Sequence record: PP461118.1
Reading direction: 5' to 3' (one strand)
Source: Enterobacteria phage ECP2307
DNA: 64,000 nt
A model generated the notes under the pieces. That model ran no database searches. It was not told the DNA's origin and was given only the letters and a program-made list of their open reading frames with translations. Both the position numbers and the translations under genes were made by a program. Below, one piece after another: positions 16,094 to 18,803 of the stretch. How positions within the stretch are numbered: the stretch's first letter is position 1; every line of letters begins with the position of its first letter.

Positions 16094-17875
16094 TTAAAGC
16101 TGCTTGTCAATATTATTTCGAATATCACCAAGCGTTGTGTAACCGAACTGCTCCGAGTCACTAAAGACTAAACGTAAAGCACAAGCTGGGTGGTCAAGTA
16201 CATCTGCAAAACTCTGGAATCCATAGCCATCTACAGCTTTCAGCTTATCACCATCCCACATAGGTGCTACACCACCAAAGGCAGACTTCTTCACACCACT
16301 ATCTGTTTTAGGGTCTTTTGCAAGCATAATCTCTTTACCACCAATGCTTGCAAGAGTTGCTTTGACAGCAAATGCAAAGGTGTCACGAGTCATGTACTGG
16401 TAGGTGTAAGAGCCTACACCAAACACTACGTTAGAGCTTGCAAATCCCATTTCATACAAACGCTTCAGGATTTCGTTTGCACGTTCCAGCGTGATAGAGT
16501 CACCATAGATAAGTCCGATATGCTCATCCAGTACCTTAAACCCTTTAGAGTTAATAGTTCCCCCAAAGATGTTGTACAGTGTCTTAATAGCTCCATCAAT
16601 CTCAGCTACAGGACGTGTTACAACGTTTGCAGAACCAACCATATAAGCATTTTTCAACATCACTGTATCAGCAACTTCAAAGTCTTCTCTGTCAACAACC
16701 ATCTCGTAGCCTTCTGACAGTAGCCATCCAGCAATACCATAGTTGATGTCCTCAAGCTTCATGTTCAGAACAGCATTCAACATTGTGTCACTGGCTTCCA
16801 GCTTGCTTAGGTGCTCGTAATAAGCCTTCTTAGCACATTCTAAGTGGATTGCTTTATAACCTGTGACAATATGTACAGGGTCTCCAGAGTCAGGACGAAT
16901 TACCAGTTTGCCATCACGTTCCATAATTTCTTTACGAAGTGCTGGTAAAATTTCTGACACAGTTCTCCAGAAGTTATAAGTATCTGAAACAACACTTGCA
17001 ATACCAGTTGGGTAAGTTTCTGTTAAAAAACGACGGAAGGTTTGTAACTCACCTTTAAAGCGTCTTTCATCTTCAATCAACCCATTACCACCTTCCCAAG
17101 CAATGTTTGCACACATTACAGAGTGCTCAGTGGCTGGTACAGAACTACCAATATCATAAATTGGGCAGGACTGCCCATAGATGCGTTTAGCTGTATATAC
17201 AGCAGGGAAGCTATCAGTCCCTTTAAAGCTGGTTAAGTGGCCTACAGCGTTAAATGCGTCATCAGTAAAGCCGGACATACCACGCATAGCAAAGTCATGG
17301 CACTGATAAGGCAAATGTAAGTCGTTATCACAAGTAAGGTCAGACCACTTCTTACAGATGCGTTTATAGTGCAATGCAATAGTTGCAATGGTACAAGCCT
17401 TCCAAATCTCAGCAGAGAAAGCATCTTCCAGATACCCAGCTACCCAATGGAAACCTGAAACAGTGTTCTGGAAGACAATCATTGGTACACGCATAGGGAC
17501 AACTGTGCCTTCTTCTACAGCGTATACTTCAACTGGTAGATAACCTAAGTCGTGAAGTGCTTCCCAATGTTCTCGACCAATAGCATCTTTACCAAGAACA
17601 CCGTTCATGACTTCTAAGATTTCGTCAATTGCTTCTTTTTTGTCACGTTCAAAGAATGTGGCGTTCCAGTGGTCTATCAGGTAATCTTTAACAAAACGTT
17701 GAATACCAAAAGCTACTACACCATCAATTGCTAAAGGGCTGTTAAACCATTTATCACTACGTGGTGTCAGGTTGAACATTAAGTACTCTGTCGCACTAGG
17801 ATACTGATAAATATGGCCAGATTTGTAAGCATCCGCGTTTAAACCTGCTGGTACTGCATAAAGTGATTTGGTCAT
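16094..17875 (-). CDS. nadV: nicotinamide phosphoribosyltransferase (Nampt/NadV-like)
   Basis: FKGTD, VPATEHSVM, VVSDTYNF, LVIRPDSGDP match Nampt blocks as recalled. Confidence 0.8.
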   Translation of the reverse strand: MTKSLYAVPAGLNADAYKSGHIYQYPSATEYLMFNLTPRSDKWFNSPLAIDGVVAFGIQRFVKDYLIDHWNATFFERDKKEAIDEILEVMNGVLGKDAIGREHWEALHDLGYLPVEVYAVEEGTVVPMRVPMIVFQNTVSGFHWVAGYLEDAFSAEIWKACTIATIALHYKRICKKWSDLTCDNDLHLPYQCHDFAMRGMSGFTDDAFNAVGHLTSFKGTDSFPAVYTAKRIYGQSCPIYDIGSSVPATEHSVMCANIAWEGGNGLIEDERRFKGELQTFRRFLTETYPTGIASVVSDTYNFWRTVSEILPALRKEIMERDGKLVIRPDSGDPVHIVTGYKAIHLECAKKAYYEHLSKLEASDTMLNAVLNMKLEDINYGIAGWLLSEGYEMVVDREDFEVADTVMLKNAYMVGSANVVTRPVAEIDGAIKTLYNIFGGTINSKGFKVLDEHIGLIYGDSITLERANEILKRLYEMGFASSNVVFGVGSYTYQYMTRDTFAFAVKATLASIGGKEIMLAKDPKTDSGVKKSAFGGVAPMWDGDKLKAVDGYGFQSFADVLDHPACALRLVFSDSEQFGYTTLGDIRNNIDKQL

Positions 17876-17921
17876 CTTTTAGTCTCTCTCAAAATGGGGC
17901 TTTGAAGCCCCCTATAAAGTT

Positions 17922-18803
17922 TTAATCAATGGTTACTACAGTAACTTGACCATAATGTGTTAAGCCACGGTCTTTAGCTTCACCTAAAGTGTTTGTAGTA
18001 TAAATATGGTCAATGCCGTTGTCAAGTAAGCTTTCAACACCTTTAGAGAAAATGCCATGAGTTACATAGAGTTCCACACGTTTTGCACCTGCTTCACGAA
18101 GATGCTTAGCTGCTTCTATGAAGGTCCGACCACCATCACAAATATCATCGAGAATCATGACAGTTTTATCAGTCAAATCAACATCATCAAGGATTCGCAT
18201 ACCAGTAATTTCACCAGTCTTAAGGTTGCGTACTTTAGACATTGTGATATATGGTTTATCCACCTCTTTAGCAGTCTCTTCGGTCTTCTTAGCTGCACCT
18301 GCATCTGGGGCTACCAAGAAATCAATGCGTGGGTCACTTGCAAAGTGTACTGCCACATCTTTTTGCTTCATGCTCTGGAAGCACTTAAATAAGTTTTCTG
18401 CAACATTACTGTGAGGGTCAAGAGCACATACTGCATCAAAGCCCATTGCATTAACGAGGTTGGCAAAAACTTTCAGTGCTGATGAATCGCCTTTGAACAT
18501 ATGGCGGTCATATCGAGCATTCGGTAAGAACCCGAAAACAACTGTTTTCATTGCTGATTTATGTGGAACAAGACTGTCAACGGCATCCTTAGCCAAAGCT
18601 AATGCAAACAGTGTGTCTTTATCATATCCCTGCACAGTAAGTATAACATTGTCAATCTTACCAGCATTACGCTCAGCAAACTTAACAAAATCTTCAGAGA
18701 AGTTTCCACCAATTTCTCCAGATGGGAATTGGATGATATTAAATTTTTCTGTGTGGAAGAATTTCTCTTGTGCGGTGACAACGACTTCAATAACAGTTTT
18801 CAT
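17922..18803 (-). CDS. prs: ribose-phosphate pyrophosphokinase (PRPP synthetase)
   Basis: PRPP-binding loop MILDDICDGGRT; start moved to MKTVIEV. Confidence 0.7.
   Translation of the reverse strand: MKTVIEVVVTAQEKFFHTEKFNIIQFPSGEIGGNFSEDFVKFAERNAGKIDNVILTVQGYDKDTLFALALAKDAVDSLVPHKSAMKTVVFGFLPNARYDRHMFKGDSSALKVFANLVNAMGFDAVCALDPHSNVAENLFKCFQSMKQKDVAVHFASDPRIDFLVAPDAGAAKKTEETAKEVDKPYITMSKVRNLKTGEITGMRILDDVDLTDKTVMILDDICDGGRTFIEAAKHLREAGAKRVELYVTHGIFSKGVESLLDNGIDHIYTTNTLGEAKDRGLTHYGQVTVVTID

What the first reader, a model, noticed from the sequence alone, without database searches (positions are those of the whole stretch)
16094..18803. Phage-encoded NAD+ salvage pair (Nampt plus PRPP synthetase)
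Nampt makes NMN from nicotinamide and PRPP, and Prs makes PRPP. Encoding both lets the phage rebuild the NAD+ precursor pool. Such modules are known in some large lytic phages. A role in countering NAD-depleting immunity is plausible but is an inference here. No NMN adenylyltransferase was recognised in the window, so the final step is presumably host-supplied or encoded elsewhere.
Basis: partly seen in the sequence, partly recalled or inferred. Interest (0 to 1): 0.5.

Follow-up and report, generated by a model that had tools for sequence, protein, structure and literature searches.

The report
Known phage NAD+ rebuilding pair (NARP1)
The two genes are real, but they are the already described phage pathway NARP1, which rebuilds NAD+ directly from ADP-ribose and nicotinamide after a bacterial defence has split it; they are not a PRPP/NMN salvage pair.

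Summary
Two co-oriented minus-strand genes lie at 17922-18803 (293 aa, Prs-like) and 16094-17875 (593 aa, Nampt-like). The window is a Felixounavirus-type phage.

The proteins are 96% and 98% identical, without gaps, to genes 79 and 80 of Escherichia phage Bas63. Osterman et al. used that operon to define NAD+ reconstitution pathway 1 (NARP1).
- Adps uses ATP to turn ADP-ribose into ADPR-pyrophosphate.
- Namat joins ADPR-pyrophosphate to nicotinamide and gives NAD+ directly.

No NMN adenylyltransferase is needed. Bas63 still overcame SIR2-HerA in a pncC nadR host.

The published diagnostic residues are present:
- the Adps catalytic lysine (K190) and the DDICDG loop shared with ICP1 Adps;
- the Namat catalytic core;
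- the adenine-clamp motif GSYTYQYMTRD;
- the K42-W43 loop.

No Macro-domain or RyR-domain accessory gene flanks the pair, so it is the plain two-gene form.

One loose end remains. An 85-residue, confidently folding insert in the Namat of Felix O1-like phages has no structural relative and no known role.

Verdict: already known, low interest.

The parts
17922..18803 (-). adps: ADP-ribose pyrophosphate synthetase (Prs-like), 293 aa, first gene of the operon
   Evidence: ORF. It is 282/293 identical with no gaps to bas63_0079. It scores 118 bits (36% identity) against the biochemically and structurally characterised ICP1 Adps, 95 bits against SPbetaL1 Adps and 64 bits against E. coli Prs. The catalytic Lys K190 and the loop D219-D220-I-C-D-G224 are conserved. 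It passes only the broad TIGR01251 subfamily model and fails every Prs equivalog cutoff.
16094..17875 (-). namat: nicotinamide ADP-ribose transferase (Nampt-like), 593 aa, second gene
   Evidence: ORF. It is 581/593 identical to bas63_0080. The best solved relatives are 9W5W/9W5X, the SPbetaL1 Namat (430 bits), against 351 bits for H. ducreyi NadV, 179 for Xcc Nampt and 140 for human NAMPT. All NAD+-contact residues are conserved. The AF2 model has pLDDT 93.4, and its best fold match is Namat at TM 0.94.
18810..18816 (-). Shine-Dalgarno-like GAGAGAG 6 nt upstream of the adps ATG; overlaps the stop codon of the upstream ORF
   Evidence: Sequence read. Function is inferred.
17896..17911 (-). hairpin GGGGCU-UCAA-AGCCCC followed by AUUUUG, in the 46-nt adps-namat spacer
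   Evidence: centroid -11.4 kcal/mol, MFE -12.7, z -2.0. The stem is identical in Bas63 and AYO145A. It is annotated as a rho-independent terminator in AYO145A. Its role is not established; it could be a partial terminator or an RNA-stabilising element.
17884..17890 (-). Shine-Dalgarno-like GAGAGAG 8 nt upstream of the namat ATG
   Evidence: Sequence read. It is invariant in the three phages aligned. Function is inferred.
16059..16082 (-). intrinsic-terminator-like hairpin (10-bp stem, 5 GC pairs, U-rich tail) 12 nt after the namat stop: likely end of the operon
   Evidence: and (-16.6 kcal/mol, z -3.4). A promoter-like site TTGACA-16-TATGAT at 16110..16083 overlaps it and would serve the next gene.
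16598..16849 (-). lineage-specific insert domain inside namat (residues about 343-426), absent from SPbetaL1, FADO and bacterial 496-aa homologues
17051..17104 (-). second, shorter insert in namat (residues about 258-275), just after the catalytic His251
   Evidence: Alignments. The site varies in length across phage Namat homologues.

Best explanation
The pair is a plain two-gene NARP1 operon of a Felix O1-like (Felixounavirus) phage.

Proposed mechanism:
1. A host NAD+-depleting defence (SIR2, TIR or SEFIR effectors) splits NAD+ into ADP-ribose and nicotinamide.
2. Adps (17922-18803) transfers the beta-gamma pyrophosphate of ATP to the 1'' position of the terminal ribose of ADP-ribose. This gives ADPR-pyrophosphate and AMP.
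3. Namat (16094-17875) displaces that pyrophosphate with nicotinamide and regenerates NAD+ in one step.

No PRPP, NMN or NMN adenylyltransferase is involved. The pathway runs only when ADP-ribose has been produced.

Shown here: the gene pair, its order and signals; near-identity to the experimentally studied Bas63 operon; conservation of every published catalytic and specificity residue that could be mapped.

Shown by others for homologues: the two reactions in vitro (SPbetaL1, ICP1, DyoEdafos, Paenibacillus foliorum) and the anti-defence phenotype in vivo (Bas63, FADO).

Inferred: that this particular phage's proteins behave the same way.
For: Identity:
- 96% (Adps) and 98% (Namat) to Bas63 genes 79 and 80, with the same lengths and about the same spacer (45 nt in Bas63, 46 nt here).

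Bas63 experiments:
- Deletion of genes 79-80 gives about 20-fold fewer plaques on SIR2-HerA cells and deeper NAD+ loss.
- ADPR-PP (m/z 720.010) appears only with wild-type phage plus the defence system.
- The phenotype persists in a pncC nadR host.

In vitro:
- SPbetaL1 Adps gave no product in the canonical Prs-type reaction.
- It makes ADPR-PP from ADPR plus ATP.
- Namat makes only NAD+ when offered both ADPR-PP and PRPP.
- The K162A and R306G mutants are inactive.

Residue mapping:
- Adps K162 maps to K190. Namat D13, Y15, F189, R192, D215, A242, R306, D308, G360, D361, G390, S391, T398, R399 and D400 are all identical. F392 maps to Y490 and Y396 to Y494.
- The clamp helix motif GSX-phi-X-phi-X-phi-TRD reads GSYTYQYMTRD. 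True Nampts read GAQTYQRNTRD (H. ducreyi NadV) and GGALLQKVDRD (Xanthomonas).
- The clamp loop has K42-W43, the arrangement the Namat structure paper describes for Bas63.
- ICP1 Adps residues R87, H121, D161, K185, D212, D213, I214, C215, D216 and G217 are identical in the window protein.

Fold: the best match is the Namat crystal structures.

Context: no NadD or NadR homologue in the window.
Against: - Neither the window's proteins nor those of Bas63 have been assayed in vitro. The Bas63 Adps did not purify well.
- The window Adps is only 29-36% identical to the Adps enzymes that were assayed. By pairwise score it is not far from cellular Prs (118, 95 and 70 bits against 64).
- Three ICP1 adenine or ATP-lid contacts are not conserved on my alignment: F18 to H17, F92 to M102, F223 to E230. 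Aromatic residues do lie next to the first two.
- Motif position phi-3 is Met, not the usual Asn or Val.
- Namat homologues keep a side activity making NMN from PRPP, so some NMN formation cannot be excluded.
- I did not build my own Adps/Prs tree.
Confidence: 0.95

Rival explanations
1. One reading: a canonical Prs makes PRPP, a canonical Nampt joins it to nicotinamide to give NMN, and a host or other phage NMN adenylyltransferase completes NAD+.
For: Pfam, PHROG and NCBIfam names and nearly all GenBank annotations say Prs plus Nampt. Namat homologues can make NMN from PRPP in vitro at about half the rate of human Nampt.
Against: - Bas63 counter-defence is independent of pncC and nadR.
- The SPbetaL1 Adps gave no product in the canonical Prs-type reaction.
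- Namat gives only NAD+ when both donors are present.
- The window protein carries the adenine clamp that true Nampts lack.
- The Prs-like protein fails all Prs equivalog cutoffs by a wide margin, for example 110 bits against 296.
Confidence: 0.03
2. A NARP2-type pathway (true Nampt plus phage Nmnat/Nudix, as in Vibrio phage KVP40), with the Nmnat encoded outside the window.
For: The window covers only about 64 kb of a genome of about 87 kb, so a gene outside it cannot be excluded from the window alone.
Against: - In the published survey, Nampts of the NARP2 clade occur in phages lacking Adps, and no phage had both pathways. Here Adps is adjacent.
- tblastn with E. coli NadD and NadR finds nothing in the window (best E 0.9).
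- The part of the Bas63 genome read here (positions 38000-87100) lists no adenylyltransferase.
Confidence: 0.01
3. An extended NARP1: NARP1-AP with a Macro-domain ADPR-1''-phosphate phosphatase, or NARP1 with a RyR-domain cADPR glycosidase.
For: About 15% of NARP1 operons carry a Macro-domain gene within two genes, and some carry RyDEP.
Against: A Pfam scan of the eight neighbouring ORFs (15547-21232) at E up to 1 shows no Macro (PF14519, PF01661, PF20016) or RyR domain. Several neighbours have no Pfam hit at all, so a very divergent accessory protein is not strictly excluded.
Confidence: 0.01

Closest known systems
NARP1 operon of Escherichia phage JohannRWettstein (Bas63), genes bas63_0079-0080 (Osterman et al., bioRxiv 10.1101/2024.02.11.579819)
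   Same: Same genus-level phage backbone, collinear at 92-95% DNA identity over 32 kb. Same gene order, lengths (293 and 593 aa) and intergenic hairpin. Proteins 96% and 98% identical.
   Different: 11 and 12 amino-acid substitutions. The window lacks the small gene bas63_0081 that follows namat in Bas63.
NARP1 of Bacillus phage SPbetaL1 (the enzymes assayed in vitro; Namat structures 9W5W/9W5X, PMC12774641)
   Same: Same two-gene order. All catalytic and NAD+-contact residues and the clamp helix motif are conserved. Fold TM-score is 0.94.
   Different: Adps is only 34% identical and Namat 45%. The window Namat is about 100 aa longer because of two inserts (about 258-275 and 343-426). The clamp loop uses K-W instead of a stacking Arg.
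Adps (NrsA) of Vibrio phage ICP1 (structures and kinetics in PMC13586617)
   Same: Closest assayed Adps (36% identity, 118 bits). It has an identical DDICDG start of the PP loop, the catalytic Lys, and R, H and D acceptor-site residues.
   Different: The rest of the PP loop is GRT here and AAS in ICP1. Three aromatic contacts (F18, F92, F223) do not align with aromatics in the window protein.
Cellular Prs (E. coli Prs) and true Nampt/NadV (H. ducreyi NadV 9KE8, Xanthomonas and human NAMPT)
   Same: Same folds and the same catalytic framework: the RxDR motif, the DxH(A/S) His, the DD ribose binders, the catalytic Lys, and the Nampt His, Arg and Asp core.
   Different: Different substrates in the characterised homologues. 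Adps shows K-x-R-N-x-x-T-G-E/D-I in the catalytic hairpin where Prs has K-R-R-P-R. Namat has aromatic residues at motif positions 3 and 7, which Nampts lack.
NARP2 (KVP40 Nampt + Nmnat) and NARP3 (Bas30 PnuC + NadR-like)
   Same: Same biological purpose: restoring NAD+ under NAD+-depleting immunity.
   Different: Different enzymes and intermediates (PRPP and NMN, or imported nicotinamide riboside). Neither an Nmnat or NadR homologue nor an Adps-less context is seen here.

Membership tests
NARP1 (Adps + Namat) | Prs-family gene immediately upstream of, and co-oriented with, a Nampt-family gene in a phage genome | tested here: met
   both genes are on the minus strand, separated by a 46-nt spacer, in a Felixounavirus backbone.
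NARP1 (Adps + Namat) | The Prs-like protein belongs to the phage Adps clade rather than to cellular Prs | tested here: met
   96% identical to Bas63 gp79, a founding member. Scores are higher against assayed Adps (ICP1 118, SPbetaL1 95 bits) than against E. coli Prs (64) or any solved Prs (at most 68). It fails all Prs equivalog cutoffs. I built no tree of my own.
NARP1 (Adps + Namat) | Adps catalytic lysine on the beta-hairpin (SPbetaL1 K162 / ICP1 K185) and acceptor-site residues R87, H121, D161, D212, D213, D216 | tested here: met
   K190, R97, H131, D167, D219, D220 and D223.
NARP1 (Adps + Namat) | Remodelled PP loop used for ATP donor binding (ICP1 C215-S220) and adenine contacts F18, F92, F221, F223 | tested here: inconclusive
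   C222-D223-G224 and F228 are conserved. A218, A219 and S220 become G225, R226 and T227. F18, F92 and F223 align with H17, M102 and E230. The alignment is weak at the N-terminus, and the SPbetaL1 and FADO loops differ again.
NARP1 (Adps + Namat) | Loss of the C-terminal alpha11-alpha12 filament module of Prs | tested here: inconclusive
   The window Adps is 22 aa shorter than E. coli Prs and ends about 11 residues before its C-terminus in the alignment. No Adps structure was modelled here.
NARP1 (Adps + Namat) | Namat catalytic core (F189, R192, D215, catalytic His, R306, D308) | tested here: met
   F195, R198, D221, H251, R327 and D329. These positions are invariant in 46 homologues.
NARP1 (Adps + Namat) | [quoted passage not shown] | tested here: met
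   G488-S-Y-T-Y-Q-Y-M-T-R-D498, with Y490 and Y494. True Nampts have Q/R or A/K at these positions. Phi-3 is Met rather than Asn or Val.
NARP1 (Adps + Namat) | Clamp loop with a stacking residue (Arg at position 3, or Lys/Tyr followed by the stacking residue) | tested here: met
   S40-D41-K42-W43, the Bas63 arrangement described.
NARP1 (Adps + Namat) | Enzyme activities: ADPR + ATP to ADPR-PP, then ADPR-PP + nicotinamide to NAD+; rescue from NAD+-depleting defence | not testable with these tools
   Shown in vivo for the 96-98% identical Bas63 operon and in vitro for SPbetaL1, ICP1, DyoEdafos and P. foliorum homologues.
   Best equivalog is NF002095 at 110 bits against a cutoff of 296. Only the broad subfamily model TIGR01251 passes.
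   The clamp is present. There is no NadD or NadR homologue in the window. Bas63 rescue is independent of pncC and nadR.
NARP1-AP / RyDEP-extended NARP1 | Macro-domain phosphatase or RyR-domain glycosidase within about two genes of the pair | tested here: not met
   A Pfam scan of eight neighbours shows none.

The most novel reading that the evidence does not exclude
The 85-residue insert of the Felix O1-like Namat (residues about 343-426) folds confidently on its own, is conserved down to about 46% identity among Ounavirinae-type homologues, and has no structural relative. It could be a functional module rather than a decoration. [quoted passage not shown]
Probability: 0.1. Interest if true: 0.35.

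Novelty: already known. Interest (0 to 1): 0.12.

Why it matters
For annotation: hundreds of Felix O1-like genomes, and more than a thousand phage records overall, still label these genes ribose-phosphate pyrophosphokinase and nicotinamide phosphoribosyltransferase.

For biology and phage therapy: a phage carrying this pair should resist SIR2-HerA, DSR1/2, type I Thoeris, SEFIR and similar NAD+-depleting systems. Because it lacks the Macro-domain phosphatase, it should remain sensitive to aRES.

Nothing here is new to the field. The pathway was defined in this very phage genus in 2024, and both enzyme types have since been solved structurally.

Tried and rejected
1. I looked for a simple Adps signature in the ribose-phosphate (PP) loop. 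DDICDGGRT looked distinctive against Prs DDMIDTGGT. I rejected it as a family rule because SPbetaL1 and FADO Adps read DDLSSFGGT and DDLSSYGGT. Only ICP1 shares DDICDG.

2. I searched the eight flanking ORFs for Macro and RyR domains, the known NARP1 add-ons. None was found.

3. I searched the window for NMN adenylyltransferases by tblastn with E. coli NadD and NadR. Nothing was found, best E 0.9. This covers only the 64-kb window, and tblastn has limited sensitivity.

4. I tried to identify PDB 9KE8/9KEO through the literature. There was no relevant paper. The fold-search description resolved it as H. ducreyi NadV.

I reran it without them.

7. I considered the TTG at 18818 as the adps start. 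I rejected it because it directly abuts the upstream stop codon, whereas the ATG at 18803 has a GAGAGAG box and matches the Bas63 annotation.

8. Finding Bas63 required stepping through BASEL accessions.
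Full report
WHAT IS THERE

The span holds two co-oriented minus-strand genes.
- The upstream one runs 18803 to 17922 and encodes 293 aa.
- The downstream one runs 17875 to 16094 and encodes 593 aa.

The mechanical ORF list starts the first gene at a TTG at 18818. That codon directly follows the stop of the preceding ORF. The ATG at 18803 has a GAGAGAG box in front and matches the annotated start in relatives.

- The 593-aa protein hits NAPRTase/NAMPT_N, NCBIfam NF006629 (466 bits, cutoff 405) and phrog_448.
- The 293-aa protein hits Pribosyl_synth/Pribosyltran, TIGR01251 and phrog_619.
- The Prs-like protein passes only the broad TIGR01251 subfamily model. It falls far short of every Prs equivalog cutoff, for example 110 bits against 296.

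The DNA is 95-96% identical to many Felixounavirus genomes, where the genes are annotated ribose-phosphate pyrophosphokinase and nicotinamide phosphoribosyltransferase.

WHAT IT REALLY IS

The literature library holds the paper that defined NAD+ reconstitution pathway 1 (NARP1) from exactly this kind of operon: genes 79-80 of BASEL phage Bas63 (JohannRWettstein), a Felixounavirus.
- Bas63 still overcame SIR2-HerA in a pncC nadR host.
- Untargeted metabolomics found ADPR-pyrophosphate only when the wild-type phage met the defence system.
- The purified SPbetaL1 homologue of gene 79 gave no product in the canonical Prs-type reaction. It converted ADP-ribose plus ATP into ADPR-PP.
- The homologue of gene 80 joined ADPR-PP and nicotinamide to NAD+. 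When offered ADPR-PP and PRPP together, it produced only NAD+.

I located the Bas63 record (MZ501086) and compared proteins.
- The window's Prs-like protein is 282/293 identical to bas63_0079.
- The Nampt-like protein is 581/593 identical to bas63_0080.
- Neither alignment has a gap.
- The window is collinear with Bas63 over 32 kb at 92-95% DNA identity.

The pair is therefore Adps plus Namat.

RESIDUE-LEVEL TESTS: NAMAT

The Namat crystal-structure paper (PMC12774641; PDB 9W5W/9W5X) lists the NAD+ contacts and a selectivity clamp that distinguishes Namat from Nampt. I checked the SPbetaL1 numbering against the sequence and mapped it through an alignment.
- Every contact is identical in the window protein: D15, Y17, F195, R198, D221, A248, R327, D329, G458, D459, G488, S489, T496, R497, D498.
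- Four contacts are conservatively replaced: S190 to A196, A362 to S460, F392 to Y490, and R40 to K42.
- Y396 is kept as Y494.
- The catalytic histidine is H251.

The clamp helix motif GSX-phi-X-phi-X-phi-TRD reads GSYTYQYMTRD, with the two adenine-stacking aromatics in place. True Nampts differ at this site:
- H. ducreyi NadV (9KE8) reads GAQTYQRNTRD;
- Xanthomonas Nampt (7YQO) reads GGALLQKVDRD.

The clamp loop has K42-W43, the Lys-then-stacking-residue arrangement the paper reports for Bas63.

The best sequence hits in the PDB are the Namat entries (430 bits). H. ducreyi NadV scores 351, Xanthomonas Nampt 179 and human NAMPT 140. An AlphaFold2 model (pLDDT 93.4, pTM 0.91) matches the Namat crystal structures best (E 4e-53, TM 0.94), ahead of NadV and mammalian NAMPT.

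RESIDUE-LEVEL TESTS: ADPS

- The mutated catalytic lysine of SPbetaL1 (K162) maps to K190.
- A September 2026 paper (PMC13586617) gives structures of ICP1 Adps.
- After fetching ICP1 Adps, the window protein shares R97, H131, D167, K190, D219, D220 and the DDICDG start of the PP loop with it.
- Three aromatic adenine or lid contacts (F18, F92, F223) do not align with aromatics in the window protein. The rest of the PP loop differs too: GRT here, AAS in ICP1.
- Pairwise scores rank ICP1 Adps (118 bits) above SPbetaL1 Adps (95), FADO Adps (70) and E. coli Prs (64).
- The Adps clade is deep. The clade call for this protein rests mainly on near-identity to Bas63 gp79 and on adjacency to Namat. The original paper found that adjacency for 97% of the Adps clade.

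- The remark that no NMN adenylyltransferase was seen is true. tblastn with E. coli NadD and NadR finds nothing.
- The remark is beside the point, because NARP1 makes NAD+ without passing through NMN.
- The inferred anti-defence role is right and already demonstrated. NARP1 counters SIR2-HerA, type I Thoeris, DSR1, DSR2 and SEFIR, but not the non-NADase type II Thoeris.

KNOWN EXTENSIONS EXCLUDED

- Some NARP1 operons carry a Macro-domain ADPR-1''-phosphate phosphatase (NARP1-AP), which beats the aRES defence.
- Others carry a RyR-domain glycosidase that feeds cyclic ADPR signals into the pathway.
- A Pfam scan of the eight neighbouring ORFs shows neither domain. This is the plain two-gene form, and by the published logic it should be sensitive to aRES.
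- NARP2 (Nampt plus Nmnat) and NARP3 (PnuC plus NadR-like) do not fit.

OPERON ANATOMY

- Both genes have a GAGAGAG box 6-8 nt upstream of the ATG.
- The 46-nt spacer holds a GC-rich hairpin followed by AUUUUG (centroid -11.4 kcal/mol; MFE -12.7, z -2.0).
- The hairpin stem is unchanged in Bas63 and AYO145A. The AYO145A authors annotated it as a terminator. Its role is open.
- A stronger terminator-like hairpin (-16.6 kcal/mol, z -3.4) follows namat at 16082-16059.
- That hairpin overlaps a promoter-like site, which would serve the next gene.

ONE LOOSE END

The window Namat is about 100 aa longer than SPbetaL1 Namat, FADO Namat and the 496-aa enterobacterial homologues. Two inserts account for this: residues about 258-275 and about 343-426.
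- Both sites vary in length across phage homologues.
- The longer insert is conserved in recognisable form down to about 46% identity among Ounavirinae-type proteins.
- It is predicted with high confidence inside the full model and on its own (pLDDT 94.4, pTM 0.83).
- The Namat structure paper does not use the word 'insertion' at all.

VERDICT

The system is an already known NARP1 operon in the very phage genus where NARP1 was discovered, so interest is low.

Noticed in passing
[not shown]
   Followed up: partly
window 17051-17104 (-), inside namat: A second, shorter insert just after the catalytic His251. Across phage Namat homologues this site carries inserts of 0 to about 45 residues, so it looks like an insertion hot spot.
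   Followed up: partly
window 16038-16042 versus L006 (Bas63) 17512-17856: The window lacks the small gene bas63_0081 (114 aa, hypothetical), which in Bas63 sits directly downstream of namat. Here namat is followed at once by the homologue of bas63_0082 (15705-16040).
   Followed up: partly
window 21584-23728 (-), junction near 22531: The anaerobic ribonucleotide reductase gene nrdD is one uninterrupted 714-aa ORF here. In Bas63 the gene is annotated in two joined pieces around an insertion of about 740 bp carrying a putative homing endonuclease (bas63_0068).
   Followed up: partly
window 20819-20831 and 20096-20320: Two further small differences from Bas63 lie upstream of the operon. The 300-nt gene bas63_0072 is absent, and the region of bas63_0074-0075 has diverged beyond blastn detection.
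   Followed up: no
window 17896-17911 (-): A conserved GC-rich hairpin plus a short U-tract lies between adps and namat. It is annotated as a terminator in phage AYO145A. It might set the ratio of the two transcripts or stabilise the mRNA. With only three near-identical sequences compared, there is no covariation evidence.
   Followed up: partly
window 15547-15723 (-): A 58-aa ORF with an N-terminal hydrophobic stretch and a CxxC...CCxxC cysteine cluster. It has weak sub-threshold Pfam hits to DnaJ-type zinc-finger models. It is annotated as a putative membrane protein in Bas63 and lies just upstream of rIIA.
   Followed up: no
window about 36000-36900: GC skew changes sign and the coding strand switches from minus to plus. 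This marks a divergent transcription boundary of the phage genome.
   Followed up: no
collection-level: tblastn finds Adps-like genes in 1393 phage records and Namat/Nampt-like genes in 2015, out of 50,697. Nearly all are still annotated as ribose-phosphate pyrophosphokinase and nicotinamide (or nicotinate) phosphoribosyltransferase, or as hypothetical proteins.
   Followed up: no
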